Made by a program: the position numbers and the translations under genes | In this document: piece by piece, positions 6,353 to 51,370 of the stretch | Layout: each line of letters starts with the position of its first letter | Numbering within the stretch: the first letter of the stretch is position 1 | Notes under the pieces: generated by a model | Told to the model about the DNA's origin: nothing | The model's database searches: none | The model's input: only the letters and a program-made list of their open reading frames with translations | DNA from: Parasitella parasitica NRRL 2501 | Lineage: Eukaryota; Fungi; Mucoromycota | Assembly: GCA_025201805.1 (NCBI GenBank) | Contig: MU619257.1 | Coordinates: 164,276-228,275 of the forward strand | Length of the DNA stretch: 64,000 nt | Direction: 5' to 3'

Positions 6353-7080
6353 TTACACGAGCAACCAATTCACCATAGAGGCACCAGGATCTTGGGGAGT
6401 AGGAGGAGGGACTTGTTCATGAAATAAGTGATCCATTTCATGGATTCTTGGTTTTTTAACAGGTAGATGCTTTCGTAAATAGGATAGTGGATCTTCAATT
6501 GATAAAGGCATTTGTAGTCGACTGTGCATATGGAGACATTCAATAGCATGTTTACGTGTAAAGTTTTCTAGCGAATGATAGATGCAGGGACGAGGAATAC
6601 CACCAGGCAACCAACTAAGACGCCAACCGAGGATTTGACTACGTTCAATATTTGTCATCAGCAAGAAAAGAATTGGGTCTATAATCATTTCAGGGGTGCA
6701 AGCAGATATCTATTTGGAATTTGTTCCAGCGCAGAGGGTTTCATAGCTATCTTCGAGAACCTTTCGTTTGAGTTGTTTGAAGGCGCGTTGACCAAGGTAT
6801 CTGCAATCGGGGCACATTCTTTCCAGAGAGGGTTTTAAGTACCAATTAGACTAGTCGATGTTTTGATATGTGGGAATAGTATCCTCAGCAGTGTACTATA
6901 TCATCCGGCAAATCAAGGGAGCAAATTACGTACTTGGTCCGGAGGCTCCTAGACCTATCTGTCATTGATAATTGTTGTACCAGATGTAACATGACTTTAG
7001 TGGAAGATTTATGAGAACCACCGCAAATGCGCCGAATGCATTCATTTTGACAAGCTTCAAGTTTCTTAAAGTGAGTGGTT
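6353..7080 (-). mobile_element. Degenerate 5'-truncated non-LTR (LINE-like) retrotransposon, C-terminal ORF remnant
   Basis: Minus-strand fragments THFKKLEACQNECIRRICGGSHKSSTKVMLHL and ERSQILGWRLSWLPGGIPRPCIYH...RKHAIECLHMHSRL resemble post-RT and C-terminal Cys/His regions of Mucorales LINE ORFs. Broken by frameshifts and stops. Confidence 0.7.
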
Positions 7081-7549
7081 TGCAGTCTTTTCCTTTCATT
7101 TTCAGACTTTTATTATGCTTATTCGATACTCTAAGATTATTTCTTGGATGTAGTGAATAAATAAATTATAATTTGAAAATAAAAGACAAGAGATTCTGCC
7201 AAGGTTGTTATTTATTCAGAGCATATATATACAATCTTTGAACGAGTGATATGAATTTATTGTTCATTCAAGACATTTATATTTCGTATCGTAAGATTTA
7301 TGGTCGTCAATGGAGAATTAAACTTGGTCTAGACTGTTTGACCCAAAGTTGCCATTACGTACATTGGCTTTTGCGAAAATCACTTGTACCAAAAAGAGAA
7401 GCGAGTCCACCACTTGATAATTTCTGTGGCTATGTCAAAGCCTGCCAGTATTGCCAAACCTAACTTTTGCATACAATTTTATTAGTCAAACATTAGGCAA
7501 CATTATAAATAAAGAAAAAAAAGTAGTTCGCAATAAAGTGGGATGATAA

Positions 7550-7877
7550 TGCAGAAACTGACCCAAGACGAGAGCATTGCACTCGAACGTAAGGATTCAG
7601 TACACCTTCAGGAGTAGCGATGCTATCCTAAAGGCCTCTTGCAAAAAAGTCCATTGTAGGTGCAAAAACTGACCCAAGACGAGAGCATTACACTCGAACG
7701 TAAGGATACAGTACACCCTCAAGAGTAGCGATGCTATCCTAAGGGCCTTATGCAAAGACAGTCTATTGTTGCCGATCACTACTGTAGGTGCAGAAACTGA
7801 CCCAAGACGAGAGCATTACACTCGAACGTAAGGATTCAGTACACCTTCAGGAGTAGCGATGCTATCCAAAAGGCCTC
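7550..7877. repeat. Three near-identical ~89-bp direct repeats separated by 22- and 39-bp linkers
   Basis: Unit TGCAGAAACTGACCCAAGACGAGAGCATTRCACTCGAACGTAAGGAT...GATGCTATCC..AGGCCTC starts at 7550, 7661 and 7789. Confidence 0.95.
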
Positions 7878-8762
7878 ACACACCATCAATTTAGGAAAAT
7901 TAAATGAGAGGATACTTATCTTATATAAAAAAGACCATTTTTAAAAAAAAGTAGTGAAAGTGAAAAAATATGGATGATGTTAGTCATAAAATGAGCATGC
8001 TTTGCTAAATGAAACGCGGTTTTGCAAGCACGTTATTTCTTTCAACTAGATGGTATACTGTCTGTATTACTATGGTTATTTATAAAGGACAAAAAGGTAA
8101 TATATCTTTTGGTATTATTTCTTTTCACATAAGGGTTTCAACTCCAACTTTTATAATTTAAAATCTTGGCATCAGATCTATGTTTTTAAGTCTTAAAGTT
8201 AACCTAATATCATAGAAATATCACAATTTATAACGGAATGCGTTAAGCCAACGTTGATTGGGTTTTTGCGAAGATATAAAGACTTATTGGCTTGCTGGCA
8301 TGAAGAGAAAATTGACGACGTAGAATTTCGCAAGTTATGGACTGAAAGATTTAATTCGATGTACGAAACCATGGCTCACTGCTCATAAGTGGGGTCCTCT
8401 AATCCAATCATAACCTCTAGTTTACAGGTTATTGGGTTTAAATGTGGTTTTAAGCCAATAAAATTGAGCAATTAATTCTAAACGACCAATGAAAATGCTC
8501 AAAACGAGGTTACTGGGTTTCAAATAGTTCAATTAATATCCTATCTCCTGGATCACAAAATACAACATCAATCGTCAATTGTGATGCGCTGTCCCAAAAC
8601 CCATGAAGCGAGGGGCACACAAAGTGTATAAAATAAGCGTTGGTTTGGTTTATTGCTGTCTCACTTGGAAAGATTCAAAATATACAAATTTTGGATACAA
8701 CGCATAAATTTATAAATTTACGAAAGCTTTACTTTGGACAACATCTTTAAAATCTCTTTACA

Positions 8763-11700
8763 ATGACAAAATCTACAGGCAAAGGTCGTGGCCGTCTTGC
8801 AGGCTCTAAAAATAAACCAAAAAAAGATGCATCGCAAAAAAGAATGGATGCATTCACTCAAAAAAAGTCAACTCAAGAAGAAATTTACTCTGGAAACTCC
8901 AATTCTACCAACTTTTCAAGTATTAGTGAATCTACGTTTTCTCCAGAGGTAGGTGAACATTGCGTAGACAATCAAAAAGTGTCAAACCTCTCATACATTC
9001 CAATAAAGAAAAATTCAACTGCAAGTAATGCAGACTTCTTGCCCTCAAGAAGCCAAGAAGAAAATGGCGCCTTTGAACCTCTGGACTACGAGGAAAGTGA
9101 TGATAACCAAGAGGACGATGATGATCTTTACATTGATCGTGACTCTATTGAAAGAGAAGAAGAAGAATTTATTGCAATTGTTGAAGGTAGTCCTGTTGAT
9201 GAATTGACTAAAACAATTCTTGAAAGACTTGGAAGATCTGCCAACCGTGGCGAACCTCCATCAGAATATACAGTTGGCAGGACCTTCTGGGTGTCCAGTA
9301 CATGTCCAAGTTTTGCTCTGCAAGGGAATCAAGCACCGAAACCCAAGGATCTATATACACCTAGAATGTTTTTACGGTTTCCACAATATTTGACGGGCAA
9401 TGGAAAAAAGCTACTTTGTAGTGTACCTAAATGCAACGGACATCTCAATGTGAAAGGCTTTACACCTAAAGCTCGTCGAGTGATTGACATTAAAGAGTAA
9501 TTATATTTATGCTATGCTAGCTATAATATTAACGCATTAATTGTATTTACACTGTATTTTCTAGCTCTTTTTACATGCTGACATCTCGTTTCGTTTGCTC
9601 CAAATCTGCCCAGCATAACTTTACTGGTTATGACAATAATCTCATTCGCCAGTTGCCTCTTCGAGTGCAAAATGATTTTCCGGCTCTGCTTACATTGAAG
9701 TCTGGTCTATCTTCCTCTTTAGTCGATTTAATACGTCCATTGATGCAAAACTCTGTTGGTCCTGGAAGAATACATAAGATTCTAAGAGGACTCCATCGCC
9801 TACGATATGAAAATCTTCAATTTCAATATCTCGATGCTGCCCTTGAGTACAAAAACTCGTCTTCTGGCTTAATAACATATAAGGCAGCTGATTTTTCAGA
9901 ATTTGAAGATTCAAAGGGATACTCTGGCCGTGTGCCTTCAGCTGTGTATATTGGTTATGTGTATACTTCGTATATGGAAAATCTGAAGGCAAAAATTGAT
10001 TCAGAAATGATGAAGCTTGGCGGTGTTGTGTTAAAAGGAGATCACACCTTCAAAATTATTAAAAAAATAGCAAAACTCAAAGGTGTCTCCATATTCACGG
10101 CTCTTTACACCGTTTGTAACGAATTTGAGGAGATTCGTATGATGGTTCTTGCCCCAACAAAGTCCATACTGCATTTGGAAGAACGCTTTCTAGAGATGAT
10201 GAAGACTTATTTGAAAAACGAGGAAGAAAAACCTCGTATTTTCTACACTGATAATGTCGTGGCTGATCAGCCAAGTCTGGAACGATGGATTCCATCATTG
10301 AAAGAAAACGTCCAGCATACCAACGAGGAGCTTGAAGTCAATTCAGGCCTTCCAGCTTATACACTTCCTGATGATGTCTCCATTATATACCTGCAATCTG
10401 CTGTACAAATTAATACAATGGCCTCAAGATTAATTGATTGCTTGCATGCAGATATCAGTGGTCGCATTATACCGATACACGTAGGCTTTGATTGCGAGTG
10501 GACAACAAAGTATATCAACAAAGCTTCGTTTAGGCAGAAAATATCATTGATACAAATTGCATTCAAAAAATCTGTATACCTATTTCATCTTGGTAATACC
10601 CATCAAATGCCTGGTCAACTGAAGCTCTTGATTGAAGATATCAATGTCATTAAAGTGGGACGTTGTGTCAAACAAGATTTGCAGAAACTTGAAGCTGATT
10701 ACCATGTTGACAAAGCTTCATATCACCCAAAAGCTTTTCTTGATCTGGGAAGTAGATATATGGAAATGGGCCATACAGACTCATTAAAGCAATGGTCACT
10801 TCAGAAACTTTGCGATGATGTCTTGGGTAAATACCTAGCTAAGCCCAGTAGCGTACGCTGTGGCGATTGGCAGGCTACTGTTCTAGATGCAGATCAAAGG
10901 AAGTATGCTGCTATTGATGCCTACGTTGCTCTGGATTTGTTCGAAAAATTGAAGACTCTGAAAATATTAAACCGCCCAGTAAACCAAAAATCGAATGTTG
11001 ATACTATTGTCAACGTGTACGCCACACCAAAGACTTGCCGTGGGAAACAGCTAGCGGTTGGAAAAATTGTAGAGTCTCCTGATGACAATATAAACTGTAA
11101 AAACTGTGTAGCAGTTCAAGTATCAAAGGTCTTTAGGTCTGATTCATATGCTCCAGTGTGCCATCATGAGAACAGAATCTCTAGTAGATTGAAAAAAACG
11201 TTTACTGCAATGAATGTGGAAGAAAACACCACAACTATACGTCTCAGCCAAAGGTGCTTGAAGACTACTAAACTGAAAGTTGAAAACATCTCATTATTGA
11301 AAAGCACAACCTCTCCAACTCTTGTGTTAAAAGACCCGTTCCATTTGATGGACTCAATACCTATCTCTGAAAAACATGGTGCTCACAAAATTTTTATGTC
11401 TCGGTTTAGTGATGCCCTGTTTGTTCCAAGTATTGAAGACAAGAAAAAAGTAGGAGACGCTTTAAAACTTCAGAACACAACATATGAAATCGTTTCGAAG
11501 GAGAGCCCTGTTTGGATTGCAAAGAGGGTACGCAGAATCATCCCTAGACCAAACGATTTGTTGCCAGTTATTGAAAAACTGTTTAAAGAGTTTGAAGGCA
11601 CTGAGTGTGCAAAGACCGGGCTACCGCTTTTTGACAAAGCGTGTAAGGCACAGGCTGTCAAGGTCCTCAATGCTATTAGCAGAGGCCATGTATCCGATCC

Positions 11701-12678
11701 TGTTGGCATTCCATTATACCACATTCGATACGTTGATGGGTTGGGGTTGCCCGTGTATAGGTGTATTCGTGGCACAAACAGTTTGGAAGGAGGCGTACAT
11801 ACAAACATCATTAGAAAATTTTCAATGTATAACGCTTCTCCAAGGCTTGCTGATTGTCTGCTGACTGATTATCGTCTTAGACATAATACCGATGTGAGTA
11901 ACATATATTTTGATGCATGTTCTATTTTAATGAATTGTAAAATTATTAATCAATAGGTTGGATCTCTTAATCGTTATAATGTGGTTCACAAGACCCATTA
12001 TAACCCCTGGCTGGTCCAGGGAATTAATCATTTAAAAAGTGAGCTAGGTATGACTGTAAAAGGCTCATACTATGACCCTGATAGTAATAGTATACATTTC
12101 TTTCCTGTTGGAGAGACTTTTGGTATCTGCCCTGTCCCTGATTTTACCAAGCATCATTTGGAAATGATCTCACAAGATTCTGACGCAGACTCTATACCAT
12201 TTATATCTCTACAACGATTCAAGATGTTTTACAGATATGTGCACTATCGATGGTATCTGTTCGTAGACTGAAAATGTCTACGTATCAATATCTAGCGTAC
12301 ATGCAAAATACCCAATACCCGGTTTTACCCATTCATACCAAAAATGAACAAGACAAGTTCTGGACACTATACACTCAACTAAAATCAGTAAATAATAGAG
12401 CAAAACCTGATTTTGTAAAAATGGCAAAGGAATGGTGTCGAAGCACAAACATCCAAAACCAAGCACTTCCTGATGGCAAAATACCAGTTGACTTTTATAA
12501 GATTCCCGAGTTACTCGAATCTTTCTTCAACAAATCACAAAATAATGATATCTATGTCAACACCACCAAAATATCGAAAAATGCAACCAAGCTGGCTGCC
12601 ACAAAAAATGCTGTCAATCCTGAAAAGCAAAACCGTCAAAAATGTAAATTCTTCAACAATGCTGAGATACCAAATTAA
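8763..12678 (+). mobile_element. Large DNA-transposon gene: DUF6729-like N-terminus, DDE transposase of the C/DxxH type, and an inserted DEDDy 3'-5' exonuclease; probable frameshift near 12230-12270
   Basis: Exons 8763-9496, 9565-11893, 11957-~12250 (introns 9497-9564 and 11894-11956, both GT-AG), then a shifted frame to 12678. Motifs: RRVIDIKDSFYML, GDHTFK, FYTDN, KDPFHLM, RGTNSLEGGVH, YLAYMQNTQYPVLPIHT. Exonuclease motifs VGFDCEW, QDLQKL, YAAIDAY. Confidence 0.75.
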
Positions 12679-12922
12679 CTTTTTAGTGTATATGGTTATA
12701 ATATCTTAGAATAAATACACTATAATCAGCAAATAAACTGTGCGCACCTGGATGAATTAAAAGTTGTGTAATGACTATACATAGATCAGATCAAAATAAA
12801 TTTTACAGCTACAAATCCTTTTAAGTGTATATATTAAGATAATAAGACCATTATATCATAATAGCTCTCGAAAGCTGGTTACATATGATGCATTTGCCTA
12901 CCATAATCGATAGTTCAAATTA

Positions 12923-14571
12923 CACTATTTCCCAAAATGATTGGGACACTTTTTGAAAACGCAAGAGACGAAATTAAAAAACAGATGAGACAGTTCTCGA
13001 ATTTGATTGGCACAAAAATAAAAGTTAGCTCGAGACACTTGAGGAAAATGAATGAGACAAATTACGAGTTTCGAGTATCCCATACTACAAAGGTTGTTTA
13101 TTCAAGCATACCTTGAACTTGTTAAAAGAATAACGGACAAATCCTTCAAGATCGTTATAAAAAACACTATTGCATGCATCAGCTATTCTGCTAGTGAGAT
13201 TCTCGCTTGCCAATAGCTTTTCTCTTTTCAGCTTGCTTTTTACGACATGCCAAAATTGTTCGATGGGGTTTAGCTCTGGAGAGTATGGAGGAAGATATAC
13301 ACACCTATAGCCTCGCTGAACGATATATCTTTCAATGTCGTCGGCTGTATGAATAGGCGCGTTATCCATTATGATATAGAAGCCTTTGAACCTCTCATCC
13401 TTGTCCAGAACGTCTAGTGTCTTAGCTACAAAATTCAAAAAATGTCCTGTTACCGTACCCCCAGATCCTACTTTGCCAGAGGCTCCACCTATCTTTCTCT
13501 TCTTGTTAGAGACGCCGGGTATTCTTACTTGAACATTGATGACACCCCAAACACTTACTGCGCCAAAAATAGTTGTGGTTTTGGCCCTCGTTGAGAGAAC
13601 AACTACCTCAGCGCGGGTACCTTTCTCAGACCAAGCCATTGTTCGCTTAAGGTTGACATGGAAAGCAGATTCATCAAGAAAGACGCAATTCGACATGTAG
13701 TCCATATCTGTTTGCTCCCATCTCTTCACCCATTCGTAGCGTCTTGAAATGCTTTCAGGGGAGTTTCTTTCCTTCGAGTGGAAATGGGCTTTCTTGAAGG
13801 ACAAGGCACAGTCATTGACCATATATCGGTGGACAGACGACTTGCTAACCTTTAAGCCAAGAAAAACTTCGATTAGACTTTCCATGGCCTGGTTTATAGT
13901 CGCAGATGGGTTATCCACAAATTCTTTCTTCAAGTGGTCCTTTTGGTCATCGTTGAGGAGTTTTGATCGGCCAATTTTCTTCTTCTCATCAGCTGAACCA
14001 GTAGTGTTTTCGCCAACACCGCTTCTGTTTTTGATTTTGTCTTGGTCCTCTTTATACCATCGATATGCAGTAGACCGAGGTATGTTGGCAGCTTTAGCAG
14101 CTTTACCGGCAGTCATATCATCATTATATACAAAGCTGAAGAACCTAGCCTTATCTTGTTCAGTATAAACATTATGTGTATGAATAGACGTCTTCTTATG
14201 TCCAACATTCTTCATCTCAACGTCGCGAGCAAGTTTCCCCTTTTCAGCAGATTTTCCGTCGATATAGGTACGGTAGTTTGTGATGTCCCCTAGTGGATAG
14301 TTCATATCGTCTACTTCCATGTTAACAGGCTCGTTTCCACATTCGTCTACTGGAGGATTTACACCATCCTCTTGATAGAATTTGTAGGTAGTCATTTTGA
14401 TTGTGAAGATGAAAATTCTCTGACTTTGTCTCGTGTCCCATTCATATTCCTCAAGTGTCTCGAGCTAACTTTTATTTTTATGCAAATCAAATTCGAGAAT
14501 TGTTCCATCTGTTTTTTTAATTTTGTCTCTTGCGTTTTCAAAAAGTGTCCCAACTATTTTGGTAAATAGTG
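12923..14571 (-). mobile_element. Tc1/mariner (IS630-like) DNA transposon, 1649 bp, ~137-bp TIRs, TA target duplication
   Basis: Left TIR 12923-13059 (CACTATTTCCCAAAATGATTGGGACAC...) is the imperfect reverse complement of 14434-14571. TA at 12921-12922 and 14572-14573. Confidence 0.95.
13085..14395 (-). CDS. DD34E transposase, 436 aa, uninterrupted
   Basis: HTH region (AAKAANIPRSTAYRW), FLDES, IMDNAPIH, YLPPYSPELNPIE. 34 residues between the second D and the E. Confidence 0.95.
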   Translation of the reverse strand: MTTYKFYQEDGVNPPVDECGNEPVNMEVDDMNYPLGDITNYRTYIDGKSAEKGKLARDVEMKNVGHKKTSIHTHNVYTEQDKARFFSFVYNDDMTAGKAAKAANIPRSTAYRWYKEDQDKIKNRSGVGENTTGSADEKKKIGRSKLLNDDQKDHLKKEFVDNPSATINQAMESLIEVFLGLKVSKSSVHRYMVNDCALSFKKAHFHSKERNSPESISRRYEWVKRWEQTDMDYMSNCVFLDESAFHVNLKRTMAWSEKGTRAEVVVLSTRAKTTTIFGAVSVWGVINVQVRIPGVSNKKRKIGGASGKVGSGGTVTGHFLNFVAKTLDVLDKDERFKGFYIIMDNAPIHTADDIERYIVQRGYRCVYLPPYSPELNPIEQFWHVVKSKLKREKLLASENLTSRIADACNSVFYNDLEGFVRYSFNKFKVCLNKQPL

Positions 14572-15345
14572 TATATCGTAAGTTGACAGGAAAACAAATA
14601 CGCATGTTTCAAATTATAATACTGCTGGTAAGTTGTGAAATGAGTTGGTTTTTTTTATGAAGCAATTTTTTCTCCTAAGTTCGAATTGCCGAGACGAAAT
14701 GTTTGTACAAAGGATATTCGTATTTGATTTAAGTAGTTGTTCCTAAGGGTTTACTGTGTTTCTGTGATCTGTTCTTCAATTGGAATAGGCAACAATTAAT
14801 AAAAGCAAATTACGAAAGAAAAGCTCTATGTTTATTTGAAGATCAACGTCTACTTTTAATGTCTCAGGTACCGAGTTCTTGGACAGACTACATCTTGTGT
14901 ATCTTCTCTTATCACGTGCTTCCTTTCTTGGTAATCTAAGAATAAGTAATTTACGGCACTAATCAAAATTTGATACTCTGCGGTGCGGGTTTTGTGAAAT
15001 TGGTAGCGATGTTTTGGAAAGATCTTGCAGTAAACAGGTCAATGCCGAGACTAATTAGACTGTTTTTCTGTTGTTTAAGTGTATATTATGTCGAATAACT
15101 AGGATATGGTATGGTATCTCAGCGATAGAATAGCAAATAATTATATATGACAGTATTTTAAACGTAAGAAAGTTCGATTTATTTCAAATATGAAGCATAA
15201 TTCCATATATATGTCTAAAATGAGACGTTCCCAGAATTCAACATCAGGTTCAGGAACGTAGCTTCAATTGGCTCAGACTCTGATCACGTGCGGGTGATCA
15301 ATTAGCACCACCAAAAACAATTTACATCTGTAAAAAATTAAGACA

Positions 15346-15427
15346 GTCGCTTTGTCCGAGTGGTTAAGGAGTGTGATTAGAAATCACATATGCTCTGCAT
15401 GCGCAGGTTCAAATCCTGCAGGCGACG
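15346..15427 (+). tRNA. tRNA-Ser, anticodon AGA
   Basis: Acceptor stem GTCGCTT/AGGCGAC, D arm with TGG, anticodon arm TGTGA-TTAGAAA-TCACA, long variable arm, T arm GCAGG-TTCAAAT-CCTGC, discriminator G. A T-run follows at about 15434. Confidence 0.96.
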
Positions 15428-15714
15428 ATATTATTTTTAAAAATAAGAATGTGGTGCATGTAGCACATAAAAGAAAAATTCGTTCCACTCGCGGAATATC
15501 AGAGTGGGCATAGTTCTGTCACGCTGCACCCTATTTTTTCTTCTAAGATAAAATTATCAACCTGTCAACTGCCAATCCATTGTCTTTATCACTATTCAAA
15601 ACCAATAACTTCCAATTTAATCTAGGTTCAATGCCTGATTTATCAAAAATGTGAAATACATTCACTATGATGATCTGCATTCCACTTCTAGATTCATCCA
15701 GTTACCTTAAATTG

Positions 15715-16140
15715 ATATAGACTACATATGCGCACAGATAATAAGATGTGCAATACAGATTTATACTATATAAGATATAAGCTAGAGATGGCACCATTAG
15801 GATGGATGACGCTATAGACTGATACTTATATCTCGACACGAGCCTTAGACATTTACTAGATTTAGTATATGCTACGAGCTTATGCTATATAAGATCTATG
15901 CTTCAGATGCGTATTCCCAGTTTCTAGATACGCACTACAAGACATATACTTATATCCATGATACTAACTACAGATACATCACGTACTACAGACTTGTACA
16001 ATATGTGCAATGCTATAGATATGCTTATGACATGCTATAGACATGCTACATATACCAATATATGCTAAGATGAATACCAAGTGATATACACTCAGACATG
16101 TACTATTAATAAAGACTGGATAAGACTATACAAGGAATGA
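15715..16140. repeat. Degenerate minisatellite-like region (CTATAGACATG-like 11-13-bp units)
   Basis: Recurrent ctatagacatg / ctacagatac / ctatagatatg variants, for example 16012-16052. No ORF. Confidence 0.55.
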
Positions 16141-16171
16141 TATACGCTTATGGATAGAAGATTGATCAGGG

Positions 16172-16398
16172 TGTTGTGCCAGTGTCAAAGGGCGCAGCGT
16201 AATGTCATGTAAAATATGATTCGTATAAAGTAATAAGACTTTTCTGAATAAAACCAGATACAAAACTGAAGACTTTTATTGAAATAAGATATGATCTCTA
16301 TTTATACTAAAATATATCCTAATCAATGTTTATCCACATAACATCTGATGTTTGACAAGAAGTGTCAAACCTTATTAAATTACAGCATTTCCAGGACA
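16172..16398 (-). mobile_element. Solo-LTR-like unit A1 (227 bp)
   Basis: TG...CA ends. Minus strand carries TATAAATAG followed by AATAAA. Hairpin GTTTGACA-agaag-TGTCAAAC. Near-identical copy at 50617-50845. Confidence 0.7.
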
Positions 16399-16399
16399 G

Positions 16400-16617
16400 T
16401 GTTGTGCCAGGTCTTGAAATTGAGCACAGCAGGTAATTGTATATGATATGAAGAATATAAGAAAGTGATAAAGACTTAATTTACCAGATACAAAACTATT
16501 GATTTATTGATTGACAAGAAGCTGTCTATTTATATTAGAATAAATCTATCTGAATCAATCTATAAAATACAATCAGGTCATGTTTGACATTTAATTGTCA
16601 AACAAGATTATAACACA
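16400..16617 (-). mobile_element. Solo-LTR-like unit A2 (218 bp), diverged relative of A1
   Basis: Starts TGTTGTGCCAG like A1, shares ACCAGATACAAAACT, minus-strand TATAAATAG...AATAAA and hairpin TGTTTGACA-tttaat-TGTCAAACA. Ends ...AACACA. Confidence 0.65.
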
Positions 16618-16618
16618 G

Positions 16619-16878
16619 TAGTAGTCAGAGCAAAACCTATTTCTATATTTAATCAGCTAATCGTTATGAATGTGGATCATTCATCGATAAGTTGAGCTTC
16701 GCAATTGAATAAGTAGAACCCAAATAGATGGTTTCTTATACAAGACATTCTATTGAATACTTCTATTTACTAGATAGAATAATCAATGCCATTTAACCTT
16801 AGATCCGATCAGGAACGGTTGCCATGACAACTGAGTTGAGATAGTGGCAACCATGGTATTCTATGGATACAACAGACA
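16619..16878 (-). mobile_element. Third LTR-like unit B (260 bp), more distant
   Basis: Lies between A2 and the conserved flank, ends ...CAGACA. Minus-strand TAAATAGAAG...CAATAGAA and a GGTTGCCA...TGGCAACC hairpin sit at positions equivalent to those in A1 and A2. Confidence 0.45.
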
Positions 16879-17490
16879 GACCTATCTTTCTATTTTACAT
16901 TAAAGAGAAGATTGGGTAGGATGTCGGGAAGACATCCCGCGATCTGATCTAGATTAAGCAGTGAATGGACCGGCTGAAAAAAAGAAACTGTTTTGAAAAG
17001 GTCCGAAAACCACTGTATTATAAGATTCGCTGATGACTACATGAAGGATATTGTTGTGCGGTGGCGTGTGCCATGTAGTCTCATTGCCACCATATATTAG
17101 TTAGACGCAAAACACTCCCTCTCACTATCAAGTATTATATAATTTATATCTTATCCAAACAAATAAACAATAGTCTTTATCCCATTAACCATTAGTTTTG
17201 GTAACCTTGGTTATATCTCTGTTGTGTGTTATACAGTCGTTATTGAACAATCGCTTAGTTTAAATCCAATATCAGGTAAATATCGGTCCACGCAACAGTA
17301 TAATGAAGGAGGCAGTACAAAACGAATTAAATGATATACATTAGATGGGTGCTATTGCATCCATATAATACGTCAATCAATACTATGCGTAGAGGATATA
17401 GGAACATGATTTCAAAAAAAAAAAAAAAAAAGTATAATATCAGACACAGAAATGACTTTATTGATAAGAAAATGCCATATTTTATACTAG
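16879..17490. repeat. Dispersed non-coding repeat, copy 1 (homologous to 50846-51370)
   Basis: Shared blocks GACCTAT..CTATTTTACATTAAAGAGAAGATTGGGTAGGATGTC..GACATCCCGCGATCTGATCT, CGCTGAT.GACTAC, TATGCG.AGAG and ATCAGACACA..AATGACTTTATTGATAAGAAAAT occur in the same order at both loci. Confidence 0.85.
17052..17297 (+). mobile_element. Solo LTR (246 bp) inserted in the dispersed repeat
   Basis: TGTTG...CAACA inverted termini, TATATAA at about 17136, AATAAA at about 17162. Absent from the homologous copy at 51.1 kb. Flanks ATAT/GTAT form an imperfect 4-bp TSD. Confidence 0.7.
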
Positions 17491-17560
17491 ACGGGCTGGC
17501 CACCCTGCCCACTCTGGTGATTTTTGCACCTTCGCTACGCTGCGGTAAAAATCGACCCTC
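17487..17560 (-). mobile_element. Helitron-like 3' terminus
   Basis: Minus strand ends ...GGGCAGGGTGGCCAGCCCGT-CTAG|T, with GC-rich hairpins just upstream (GATTTTT..ACC..GGT..AAAAATC). No 5' TC end or Rep/Hel ORF identified. Confidence 0.45.
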
Positions 17561-19138
17561 ATTTACACTCCTGATCGAATCCAAGGATGAATATCACTGG
17601 TTATTTTATAAAAAATAGAAGCAATCATGGAATTTCTTGCATATAAGTGTTATATCTGTAGAATAACCATGTTTACCATATTATTTCAATTCATTTGTCA
17701 TTGCAAACGTTCCTAATCGAATCCAAGGTTATATGTCACCACATGTTCTATTATATAGTAAATAGTAATAATTAATAGAACGTCTTGTATAAGAAAGTAT
17801 CTATTTAGGTTCTACTTGTTTTATTTTGCGAAGCTAAACTTATCGATGAATGATTCACATTCATATTAATTGGCTGATAGGATAGGTCTTGTTTGGAAAT
17901 TGTACTGCTTTTAAAGGGGTAATACCGTTGATTATAAGATGTAGAAGCACAGTTCAGAGCAGAAGAAATTGTACAGTAATTCAACATATGAAAGCTTAAG
18001 TTACAACTAATTCTAAGGATGCCCCATAAATACCACAACTTTAGTAATTTGTATATGATATTATTTCACACAACTTCAGTTCGTATCCATCGGCATTCGG
18101 TTCCACAGAGCCTAGTAGAAGATAAACAAATGTAGGCGTTGGTGGCTCCTTTTAGAAAGCTTCCAGACCATGCAGTCTCTGTTTCTTGATAAAATTATCC
18201 ATTAATACAATAAAAGCAGTTTTAAAGAGCAAAAAAGAATGTCAATATCAGTTTGTTAACTACCCTTGACCAAGTAATAGCCAAGTGTAAACAAGTATAC
18301 TATCGCAAGAAAATGGAATGTGTAGCGACGGGATTAGCTTCCAAATTCAACAAAACTGAGCGGAACGCCACTCAATAGTCTTTTAAATACCATTAATAAG
18401 CAATTGGTAATGGTATTCTTTCGGTCAAATTCTGCTCATCTTCCAGACGTTGTAAAGATAGTTGGCCCGCTTTATGCGGTTGTTTTGCTTGAAATTGAAT
18501 TGACGTAACGGTAAAACAGACTGAGTAATGCAGTGCTGTGTACGCTGATAGTTTATGATGACCAACTAATATAGCGCTTATACAATGGATTTTCAAAAAC
18601 TATGTTTGCTGCCTTTTATGAGCCGTCCAAAACAGAGCTACCCAGTTTTCCTGTCATAAGTGTTATAAAAAAGAAATCAGACATGAACACACATCCAGCT
18701 ATGCAAGAAGTTTTTGGCGGTTGAAATAGAATCAGATACGAAAAGAAGTAAAAAAAAAAACTTTCATTAATCGAAAGGTTTGATTAGTGTAAGTCATCAT
18801 AGATGTTCAGGAACCATTTGAGAGGCGTTGCCCCGATGGGCAGTCAATTTGACAATGTCTACTCGTAATCCTATAAATCAAAGCACGGAAACGGAAGGGT
18901 TAGGCTATTACTAAGAGATAATACTGTTTCTGTGTGAAATTTGCCATCAGAGACATTTGTAATTTTGGCAAAAGGGTTCGATAACATTTCTTTAAAAAAA
19001 GTTAGTCAGTGTACAATCTTAGACTCTTGATGTTTACGATGCTGAGAATTGTATCGGGTTAATTCGTACATTTGTGGGACAAATAAATTTGCACAATTGC
19101 TAATCTTTTGTATATTTCTTTTCTTTTCTTTTCTTTTC

Positions 19139-50616: not shown

Positions 50617-50845
50617 TGTTGTGCCTGTGCCAACAGGCGCAGCGAAATGTTATGTAAATGTTATATAAAAGAAGTAATAAAGACTTTTCTGAATAAAACC
50701 AGATACAAAACTGAAGACTTTTATTGATATAAGATAGGATCTCTATTTATACTAAAATATATCCCAATCAATGTTTATCCACATAACATCTGATGTTTGA
50801 CAAGAAGTGTCAAACCTTATAATAAATCACAGCATTTCCAGGACA
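50617..50845 (-). mobile_element. Solo-LTR-like unit, second copy of A1
   Basis: Long exact matches to 16172-16398 (AAGACTTTTCTGAATAAAACCAGATACAAAACTGAAGACTTTTATTGA...ACAGCATTTCCAGGACA). Confidence 0.75.
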
Positions 50846-51370
50846 GACCTATTCTTCTATTTTACATTAAAGAGAAGATTGGGTAGGATGTCTTCTCGAC
50901 ATCCCGCGATCTGATCTTGATGTGTTTTTTGAATAAGCCTGGAACCTTGCAAGAGGTCCAATTACAGCTTGTAGCTTATTCCTTATTTTTAAAAGAATTA
51001 CCAACAATTAATAACATGATCCGTGCATTATGACTATGTTAGATATTACATATGTAGCCTTTACATGGAAACAACAGAGATAATTAAAATTTGCAATATA
51101 TAAGCGCTGATAGACTACGATAAAGAGCAAATCAAAGCCTGTCTTATGCGCCATAAGAACAGGCATGCTCATCGCTATATGAGCATAACTTGCTTTCTAC
51201 TGGGCGATGTCTCTATCAAAAGTTATCTGCAAAAACAGTTTTGGTTATGCGCAGAGCTGAGGATATATAAATATAATCTGCTCAAAAAATGTATAGACTT
51301 TTTAAAAATAAAATCAGACACAAAAAACTAATGACTTTATTGATAAGAAAATATCATCTTTTCATACAAG
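50846..51370. repeat. Dispersed non-coding repeat, copy 2 (homologous to 16879-17490)
   Basis: Same ordered conserved blocks as copy 1. Confidence 0.85.

What the first reader, a model, noticed from the sequence alone, without database searches (positions are those of the whole stretch)
8763..12678. Transposase with a complete DEDDy 3'-5' exonuclease nested inside its catalytic core
Seen: candidate transposase residues D (GDHTFK, ~10040), D (YTDN, ~10250), DxxH (KDPFH, ~11335) and E (TNSLEG, ~11785). Between the second D and the DxxH lies a ~200-aa WRN/RNase D-like exonuclease with ExoI (FDCEW), ExoII (QDL) and ExoIII (YAAID) motifs intact (~10360-10960). There is also an AT-hook-like N-terminus (GRGRLAGSKNK) and a Cys/His DUF6729-like region. 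Established: hAT, MULE, P, Kolobok and ISL3 transposases carry an insertion domain after the second D and share C/DxxH. Inference: a poorly classified transposon lineage has captured an exonuclease at the insertion position. It could trim transposon or target ends, or degrade small RNAs in a host group with strong RNAi. Such genes are easily mis-annotated as Werner-type exonucleases.
Basis: partly seen in the sequence, partly recalled or inferred. Interest (0 to 1): 0.78.

Follow-up and report, generated by a model that had tools for sequence, protein, structure and literature searches.

The report
Exonuclease-carrying Dada transposon, damaged copy
This is a frameshifted copy of a repeated fungal jumping gene, most likely of the known Dada family, whose cutting enzyme has a Werner-like exonuclease nested inside it; that layout was published in 2013, and the extra domain likely trims DNA ends during a jump.

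Summary
The gene has three exons (8763-12678). Its D, D, DxxH and E residues fold like the IS256-family transposase ISCth4 (model pLDDT 89; Z 16.4). A complete WRN-like DEDDy exonuclease (Z 27.2) lies between the second D and DxxH.

This layout is already described. Kojima and Jurka 2013 report it for Dada transposons of Laccaria and Ectocarpus. A homolog of the window protein matches the printed Dada-1_LB exonuclease at 120 of 161 positions (counted by eye). Of 117 homologs with both transposase halves, 108 carry the exonuclease, and the two domains give congruent trees.

Contig depth in four DNA runs suggests a family of roughly 4-15 copies, and intron 1 is spliced in an RNA-like run. The window copy is damaged: it has a 2-base frameshift near 12202 and a Tc1-type insertion over its right end.

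Dada's hallmark, insertion into a small-RNA gene, was not shown; there is only a six-base hint (a tRNA A-box motif) in two runs. Verdict: new member of a known kind, low interest. The exonuclease's role is untested.

The parts
8387..12922 (+). Body of the repeated element as preserved in the window (left edge approximate; right end overwritten by a Tc1-type insertion)
   Evidence: Contig depth step in X3, X1, X4, X6. A single-copy X6 contig ends at 8416, which places the edge near 8387 if unitigs overlap by 30 bases (inference). All 5 holder runs laid leave the window sequence at 12922.
8763..9496 (+). Exon 1: basic N-terminus, acidic tract, first half of the Cys/His finger (DUF6729)
   Evidence: matches the N-terminus of homolog P0004.
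9497..9564 (+). Intron 1, GT..AG, 68 nt
   Evidence: Only in-frame GT..AG pair in the range scanned. The joint 9496-9565 is seen in a contig of RNA-like run X7.
9303..9877 (+). DUF6729 region with N-terminal finger C219-x4-C224-x31-C256-x5-H262
   Evidence: Pfam; residue positions. Dada-U6_DR has C-x4-C-x34-C-x2-C.
9565..11893 (+). Exon 2: whole catalytic core and exonuclease
10040..10042 (+). First catalytic Asp (D404, GDHTFK) on strand 1
   Evidence: 94/95 conserved. Context matches the start of the published Dada RNase H profile, consensus iLkkDstkkvskkl (compared by eye).
10250..10252 (+). Second catalytic Asp (D474, YTDN) after strand 4
   Evidence: 104/106 conserved. 70 residues after D1, against 68 in Dada-U6_DR.
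10346..10963 (+). WRN-like DEDDy 3'-5' exonuclease (ExoI D 10490 and E 10496, ExoII D 10676, ExoIII YxxxD 10904-10918)
11006..11266 (+). Small predicted all-beta domain between the exonuclease and DxxH; fold not identified
   Evidence: Five strands in the model. No Pfam hit and no meaningful PDB sequence hit. Not folded alone.
11333..11344 (+). DxxH signature (DPFH) right after strand 5, followed by the helical insertion domain to about 11776
11786..11788 (+). Catalytic Glu (E986, TNSLEG) at the start of the last core helix
   Evidence: 89/94 conserved; helix 738-752 in the model.
11894..11956 (+). Predicted intron 2, GT..AG, 63 nt
   Evidence: Homologs P0003, P0005 and P0019 skip the same 21 codons. 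Not seen as a joint in X7.
11957..12678 (+). Exon 3, broken by a 2-base frameshift near 12202; the tail EKQNRQKC resembles only the last part of the C-terminal zinc finger of homologs
   Evidence: Frame change against P0003. Contigs of 5 of 5 holder runs laid lack the two bases. Full finger found in 36 of 254 held proteins.
12923..14571 (-). Tc1/mariner-type transposon (long terminal inverted repeats, TA on both sides, DDE_3 ORF) sitting on the element's right end; not part of the Dada element

Best explanation
The stretch is a frameshifted copy of a multicopy DNA transposon, most likely of the Dada superfamily, whose DDE transposase holds a complete WRN-like exonuclease that likely trims 3' DNA ends during transposition. 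Shown here: gene structure, both sets of catalytic residues and their conservation, raised contig depth, splicing of intron 1 and the damage. Predicted: the two folds. Inferred from established knowledge of C/DxxH transposases (hAT, MULE, IS256): the N-terminal Cys/His region binds the element ends, and D404, D474 and E986 cut and join DNA. Inferred and untested: the exonuclease works in cis on 3' ends exposed at the cut sites, most plausibly flank or target ends rather than the 3'-OH needed for strand transfer. I put Dada membership at about 0.93, end-trimming at about 0.6, and tRNA targeting by this family at about 0.3. The window copy could at most make a protein cut short after about 1125 residues, so it would probably depend on other copies.
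For: Published identical architecture in Dada-1_LB, Dada-2_LB and Dada-1_ES (PMC3706591). Homologs P0048 and P0132 carry the Dada-1_LB ExoI motif. P0132 matches the printed Dada-1_LB exonuclease row at 120 of 161 positions (by eye). P0048 aligns to the window protein over both halves (29% over 475 aa, E 3e-57; 36% over 191 aa, E 3e-31). The D1 context matches the published Dada profile. The exonuclease-less homolog P0029 matches an Atlas cluster, commonest phylum Chordata and 90% DUF6729, at TM 0.85 over 259 residues, and MULE/IS256-type clusters at TM 0.53-0.56. Model and fold search. The exonuclease lies between the DDE halves in 108 of 117 homologs with both halves. Exonuclease and DDE distances correlate (rho 0.52; 0 of 999 permutations reach it), and 17 of 21 strongly supported exonuclease splits recur in the DDE tree with none in conflict (88 of 107 rows), consistent with one old capture. 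WRN is the closest solved exonuclease by profile (E 6e-47, against EXD2 3e-31 and Mut-7 5e-19) and by structure (Z 27 against 19). Depth over the element is about 14 times the flank in X3, 10-15 times in X4 and X6, and 4-7 times in X1. Single-copy contigs of X11 and X13 run 6.6 kb to the right of 5783 without it, which suggests absence at this site in a sister lineage.
Against: No tRNA, snRNA or 5S fragment lies at the left edge, and no target-site duplication could be defined. The nearest tRNA (Ser, 15346) is intact and 2.4 kb away. None of 5 related metagenome loci holds a tRNA or a credible RNA-family hit, though they may not reach the termini. The fourth ligand of the N-terminal finger is His, not Cys, and the C-terminal finger is incomplete in this copy. 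No protein named Dada was retrieved and the published profile was not run; the link rests on motifs and by-eye comparison. The 108/117 count is biased because the query contained the exonuclease, and it includes near-duplicate cluster members. At support 0.9, 5 of 32 exonuclease splits conflict with the DDE tree. Summed contig depth is not a true copy number. No clean empty site was seen in the 4 DNA holder runs laid. Nuclease activity and substrate were not tested.
Confidence: 0.85

Rival explanations
1. Same element, but the exonuclease acts on RNA, trimming small RNAs or silencing intermediates to blunt host RNAi.
For: DEDDy relatives such as Nibbler/Mut-7 and RNase D act on RNA and score Z 16-19. 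A contig of RNA-like run X7 shows a joint at 12678-12748 that reads GT..AG on the minus strand, hinting at antisense RNA. Strong RNAi in Mucorales is recalled knowledge.
Against: WRN is clearly closer than any RNA exonuclease. The domain is buried inside the transposase core, which suits action at the DNA ends. It is kept across Mucoromycota, Basidiomycota, a chytrid and a brown alga, so it is not specific to one host silencing system.
Confidence: 0.12
2. A separate exonuclease-bearing fungal lineage, related to Dada but without small-RNA target specificity, so best treated as its own subgroup.
For: No small-RNA gene at the left edge. Two unrelated continuations follow the shared 17 letters at the right end. 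The Laccaria and Ectocarpus families are named without a target in the 2013 table.
Against: Kojima and Jurka already class such elements as Dada. One continuation (X1, X7) contains the reverse complement of the A-box target TAGCTC used by several Dada families. One-ended insertions with non-target flanks are described for Dada. This reading changes the label, not the known architecture.
Confidence: 0.3
3. A domesticated or ordinary host gene (Werner-like exonuclease) rather than a mobile element.
For: Databases name many homologs '3'-5' exonuclease'. The gene has introns and is transcribed. A domesticated Dada exists in carps.
Against: High and variable depth across runs, near-identical variants, frameshifts in some copies, intact DDE residues, and apparent absence from the matching site in X11 and X13.
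Confidence: 0.03

Closest known systems
Dada-1_LB and Dada-2_LB (Laccaria bicolor), Dada-1_ES (Ectocarpus siliculosus); Kojima and Jurka 2013, PMC3706591
   Same: DDE transposase with DxxH; DEDDy exonuclease with all four acidic residues between the second D and DxxH; introns; N-terminal Cys finger; very similar exonuclease motifs.
   Different: Host is a Mucoraceae fungus (closest named proteins are from Parasitella parasitica, 94-96% identity). Fourth N-terminal ligand is His. This copy is frameshifted and has lost its right end.
Target-specific animal and Perkinsus Dada families (Dada-U6, -U1, -tY, -tK, -tI); PMC3706591, PMC8869645
   Same: D1-D2 spacing (70 against 68 residues); DxxH; no terminal inverted repeat found; one right-end continuation holds the reverse complement of their A-box target TAGCTC.
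   Different: No exonuclease is reported for them. Their insertion into a small-RNA gene with a 6-7 bp duplication is shown; here it is not.
KolobokD (PMC9587614, passages seen)
   Same: C/DxxH-class transposon carrying a DnaQ-like 3'-5' exonuclease proposed to act on transposition intermediates.
   Different: Its exonuclease is DEDDh (TREX/ERI1-like), not DEDDy/WRN-like; Kolobok makes TTAA duplications; different superfamily.
ISCth4 transposase (IS256 family; PDB 6XG8, 6XGX)
   Same: Best solved match to the DDE part of the model (Z 16.4-16.8, rmsd 3.4-3.8, 265-278 residues).
   Different: Bacterial, 8-9% identity, no nested exonuclease.
WRN exonuclease domain (PDB 2E6L, 2FBT)
   Same: Fold and all DEDDy residues (Z 27.2, rmsd 1.5, 34% identity).
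   Different: Here it is inside a transposase, and no helicase domain was found in the gene.

Membership tests
Dada superfamily | DDE triad with DxxH after the second D | tested here: met
Dada superfamily | Sequence kinship to named Dada transposases | tested here: met
   Indirect: motif hits; 120/161 by-eye identity of P0132 to the Dada-1_LB exonuclease row; whole-core alignment to P0048; match to the first 33 positions of the published profile by eye. The profile itself was not run, and Dataset S1 was not readable.
Dada (Laccaria/Ectocarpus type) | DEDDy exonuclease between the second D and DxxH with four acidic residues | tested here: met
Dada superfamily | N-terminal CCCC zinc finger | tested here: inconclusive
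   Three Cys at matching spacing, His in fourth place. 33 of 46 homologs fitting my pattern, of 254 held, end in Cys.
Dada superfamily | C-terminal CCHC zinc finger | tested here: inconclusive
   The window has only a tail resembling the last part. 36 of 254 held proteins, many of them partial, have a CxxC..CxGxxxRxxC version.
Dada superfamily | Introns in the transposase gene | tested here: met
   Intron 1 joint in X7; intron 2 predicted from homologs.
Dada superfamily | No terminal inverted repeats; short sub-terminal inverted repeats | tested here: inconclusive
   No repeat linking the two edges among the 25 longest of 105 inverted pairs shown, but the true right end is missing from the window. 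A 13-of-14 inverted match links 8698-8711 to the right-end junction of other copies (by eye).
Dada superfamily | Insertion into a multicopy small-RNA gene with a 6-7 bp target-site duplication | tested here: inconclusive
   Nothing at the left edge. GAGCTA occurs 24 letters past 12922 in X1 and X7 but not in the 30 letters shown for X3, X4 and X6. The tool prints only 30 letters.
Dada superfamily | Several near-identical copies per genome | tested here: met
   Depth step in 4 of 4 DNA holder runs laid; main X3 contig differs from the window at 24 of 1914 letters. Depth is a proxy.
KolobokD | DEDDh (TREX/ERI1-like) exonuclease | tested here: not met
   ExoIII is YxxxD, 102/104 Tyr; closest structure is WRN.
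hAT / MULE / IS256 | Family Pfam domains and terminal inverted repeats | tested here: inconclusive
   No such Pfam hit in the window protein; one sub-threshold MULE hit in P0048 (E 0.08); fold shared with IS256; termini not fully seen.
Host WRN / EXD2 / Mut-7 genes | Single-copy gene without a DDE core | tested here: not met
   Raised depth and conserved DDE residues.

The most novel reading that the evidence does not exclude
This is a recently amplifying, transcribed exonuclease-bearing Dada family of a Mucorales fungus that inserts at the tRNA A-box (TAGCTC). It would be a fungal Dada with a defined target, which neither Dada paper read here gives. It also appears to make a spliced antisense RNA from its right end. 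A young family with intact DDE and DEDDy sites would be a workable system to test whether the nested exonuclease shapes Dada's odd junctions (replaced target bases, one-ended insertions).
Probability: 0.27. Interest if true: 0.45.

Novelty: new member of a known kind. Interest (0 to 1): 0.2.

Why it matters
The architecture is already in print, and Dada is already reported, by implication, from Mucoromycotina (PMC5751038, section 20). What this adds is modest. The exonuclease-bearing form is a large, old fungal lineage (408 representatives at E 1e-30 or better), routinely annotated as a plain 3'-5' exonuclease or DUF6729 protein. DUF6729 appears to be the Dada N-terminal finger region; a search for the term found no paper. 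The model places the exonuclease as a second insertion ahead of the usual insertion domain. My searches found no test of the exonuclease's role beyond the 2013 proposal, so a young family is a usable substrate for that question.

Tried and rejected
No whole genome is held for this window, so copies could not be collected directly. A single-sequence fold gave pLDDT 32 and was discarded. Foldseek was filled by exonucleases and listed no transposase among the rows shown; the wide VIA search found one.

Rfam and ARAGORN found only the intact tRNA-Ser near the element, so the idea that this copy splits a tRNA was rejected for the left edge. Five metagenome loci gave no tRNA and only three sub-threshold Rfam matches.

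Searches meant to fetch animal Dada proteins (103 hits; every organism name shown is fungal) and host WRN-like outgroups (6 hits) did not deliver them, so the origin of the exonuclease was not tested by a rooted tree. The beta domain at 11006-11266 had no Pfam or PDB sequence match and was not folded alone.

Run X10 shows almost only C>T and G>A differences (96 and 107), looks bisulfite-converted, and was not used. No holder was on record as RNA; X7 is a guess that showed one spliced joint. Substitutions listed in the read tables split 9 silent to 13 replacement (22 sites, main variant) and 6 to 7 (13 sites, minor variant). The tables are truncated and the window copy is decayed, so I draw nothing on selection from them.

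Earlier scan findings: none. Literature searches: Dada + Mucorales 1 paper, DEDDy + transposase 1 paper, DUF6729 none.
Full report
Observation. The interval 8763-12678 is a three-exon gene in an intron-rich fungal sequence. The only in-frame GT..AG pair in the range scanned for intron 1 is 9497-9564, and a contig of the RNA-like run X7 shows exactly that joint. Intron 2 (11894-11956) is predicted because homologs P0003, P0005 and P0019 skip the same 21 codons. Pfam finds the 3'-5' exonuclease (E 1e-18) and DUF6729 in two pieces. In alignment A1 (window plus 106 of 167 held proteins, chosen for length and coverage) the ten DDE, DxxH and DEDDy residues are each kept in 90-99% of rows that have a residue there.

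Structure. A model from an 80-row alignment reached pLDDT 89 and pTM 0.71. It shows strands 1-3 with D404, a helix, strand 4 with D474, then the exonuclease (model 261-466), a small beta domain (481-567), strand 5 with DxxH, a helical insertion and the helix with E986. Reading this as an RNase H core uses recalled hAT/IS256 topology. The wide structural search gave WRN exonuclease first (Z 27.2, rmsd 1.5, 185 aligned) and ISCth4 transposase across residues 49-776 (Z 16.4, rmsd 3.4, 265 aligned) (Z 16.8 for a second entry). The exonuclease is therefore a second insertion in front of the usual insertion domain, not a replacement of it.

Family. The representative search found 4517 proteins at E 0.001 or better and 408 at 1e-30 or better. 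Named hits come from Mucorales, many Basidiomycota and a chytrid, often labelled 3'-5' exonuclease. The closest named ones are Parasitella parasitica proteins at 94-96% identity. Of 167 proteins held, 117 had both DDE halves in order and 108 of these had the exonuclease between them; the query favours such hits and near-duplicates are included. Some Apophysomyces proteins lack it. For 88 of 107 rows with both parts, exonuclease and DDE distances correlate (rho 0.52, 0 of 999 permutations). Of 21 exonuclease splits with support 0.95, 17 recur in the DDE tree and none conflicts; at 0.9, 5 of 32 conflict. That fits one old capture followed by joint inheritance, but no host outgroup was available.

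Comparison with what is known. Kojima and Jurka 2013 (PMC3706591; parts 1-3 of 4 read, plus Fig. S1 text; figures and Dataset S1 not readable) state that Dada transposons of Laccaria and Ectocarpus encode a DEDDy exonuclease between the second D and DxxH, and suggest it processes cleaved 3' ends. Two homologs carry the Dada-1_LB ExoI motif and two the Dada-2_LB one. P0132 matches the Dada-1_LB row at 120 of 161 positions by eye, and P0048 aligns with the window protein over both halves. The window's VLKGDHTFKIIKKI fits the start of the published Dada profile (PMC5751038; passages, section 20 and supplement parts 19-20 seen). That paper counts 1,023 Dada elements in four fungal phyla and does not list Dada among the superfamilies missing from Mucoromycotina. 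The exonuclease-less core of P0029 matches a DUF6729 cluster, commonest phylum Chordata, at TM 0.85; the window's DxxH-E part also hits a Chordata cluster by features (0.95). KolobokD carries a different, DEDDh exonuclease (PMC9587614, passages).

Mobility and state of this copy. Seven of 16 listed runs hold the stretch; five holders were laid. Depth over 8400-12900 is about 580-810 against 42 in flanks in X3, 390-630 against 41 in X4, 490-810 against 44 in X6, and 770-1120 against 195 in X1. A minor variant at depth 117 suggests X1's single-copy level may be lower. This points to roughly 4-15 copies with variation between runs, though summed contig depth is only a proxy. In X11 and X13, which differ from the window by about 15% at a neighbouring gene, single-copy contigs run 6.6 kb to the right of 5783 without the element, while related sequence lies on other, deeper contigs. 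The window copy has two extra bases near 12202 relative to all five holders; I cannot tell mutation from assembly error. The main contigs of X4 and X6 lack two bases at 9892, so other copies are damaged too. A Tc1-type element (12923-14571, TA on both sides) covers the right end.

Termini and target. The left edge is near 8387 by inference from a single-copy X6 contig ending at 8416; no small-RNA gene lies there. At the right, all five holders continue past 12922 with the same 17 letters and then split. X1 and X7 reach GAGCTA after 24 letters, the reverse complement of the A-box target TAGCTC of several Dada families (PMC8869645; parts 1-3 of 5 and supplement passages). X3, X4 and X6 continue differently. 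The 38 loose letters in X1 would fit 24 element bases plus tRNA nucleotides 13 to 1 and one more, but only 30 letters are printed. The hexamer occurs 19 times on the window's two strands, so one occurrence is a hint only.

Mechanism and rivals. The best reading is cut-and-paste transposition by the DDE core, with the nested WRN-like domain trimming 3' DNA ends in cis; this step is inferred and matches the 2013 proposal. WRN ranks above EXD2 and Mut-7 by profile and structure, which weighs against an RNA role, although a minus-strand spliced joint at 12679-12747 in X7 hints at antisense RNA. A host-gene reading is refuted by depth and intact DDE residues.

Verdict. The feature is real and well supported, but its architecture is published. 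New member of a known kind; interest 0.2. The remaining upside is a young fungal family in which target choice and exonuclease function could be tested. The unread Dada Dataset S1 and figures could sharpen the membership and terminus comparisons.

Noticed in passing
window 12923-14571: Tc1/mariner-type element with about 140-bp terminal inverted repeats, TA on both sides and an open 459-aa DDE_3 frame on the minus strand; three DNA runs carry a version lacking 37 bases at 13469-13505.
   Followed up: partly
window 12679-12747: A contig of RNA-like run X7 skips this stretch, which reads GT..AG on the minus strand: a possible spliced antisense transcript over the 3' end of the transposase gene. 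The tool marks the letters between as not known.
   Followed up: partly
window 12618-12626: Length arithmetic on X7 contig 26 leaves about 240 letters unplaced near here, and the protein tail looks like the end of a zinc finger; the window copy may have lost a linker and most of the C-terminal finger. Inference only.
   Followed up: partly
window 14574-15345: Two diverged units of about 360 bp in tandem just upstream of tRNA-Ser (15346-15427); the second is at high depth, and other loci join 14968 almost directly to the tRNA. Possibly small elements that insert upstream of tRNA genes.
   Followed up: partly
window 7530-7879: Three copies of a 111-nt unit (81-85% to the first), no Rfam match; part of it is matched by several contigs in diverged runs X11 and X13.
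   Followed up: no
window 6353-6709 (minus): Short frame with WLPGGIPRPC that recalls the end of a non-LTR retrotransposon protein (from memory); no Pfam hit.
   Followed up: no
window 15650-17900 and 50617-50921: Very high-depth repeats with nested inverted repeats, probably MITE-like elements; one part recurs at 50617-50921 at 90% identity.
   Followed up: no
window 8203-8388: A 61-codon open frame ends exactly at the inferred left edge of the element, as if the insertion cut an older coding stretch.
   Followed up: no
P0029, P0179, P0025, P0168: Apophysomyces homologs in which D2 is followed by the DxxH position within about 15-35 residues, with no exonuclease: loss of the domain or gene-model artefact.
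   Followed up: partly
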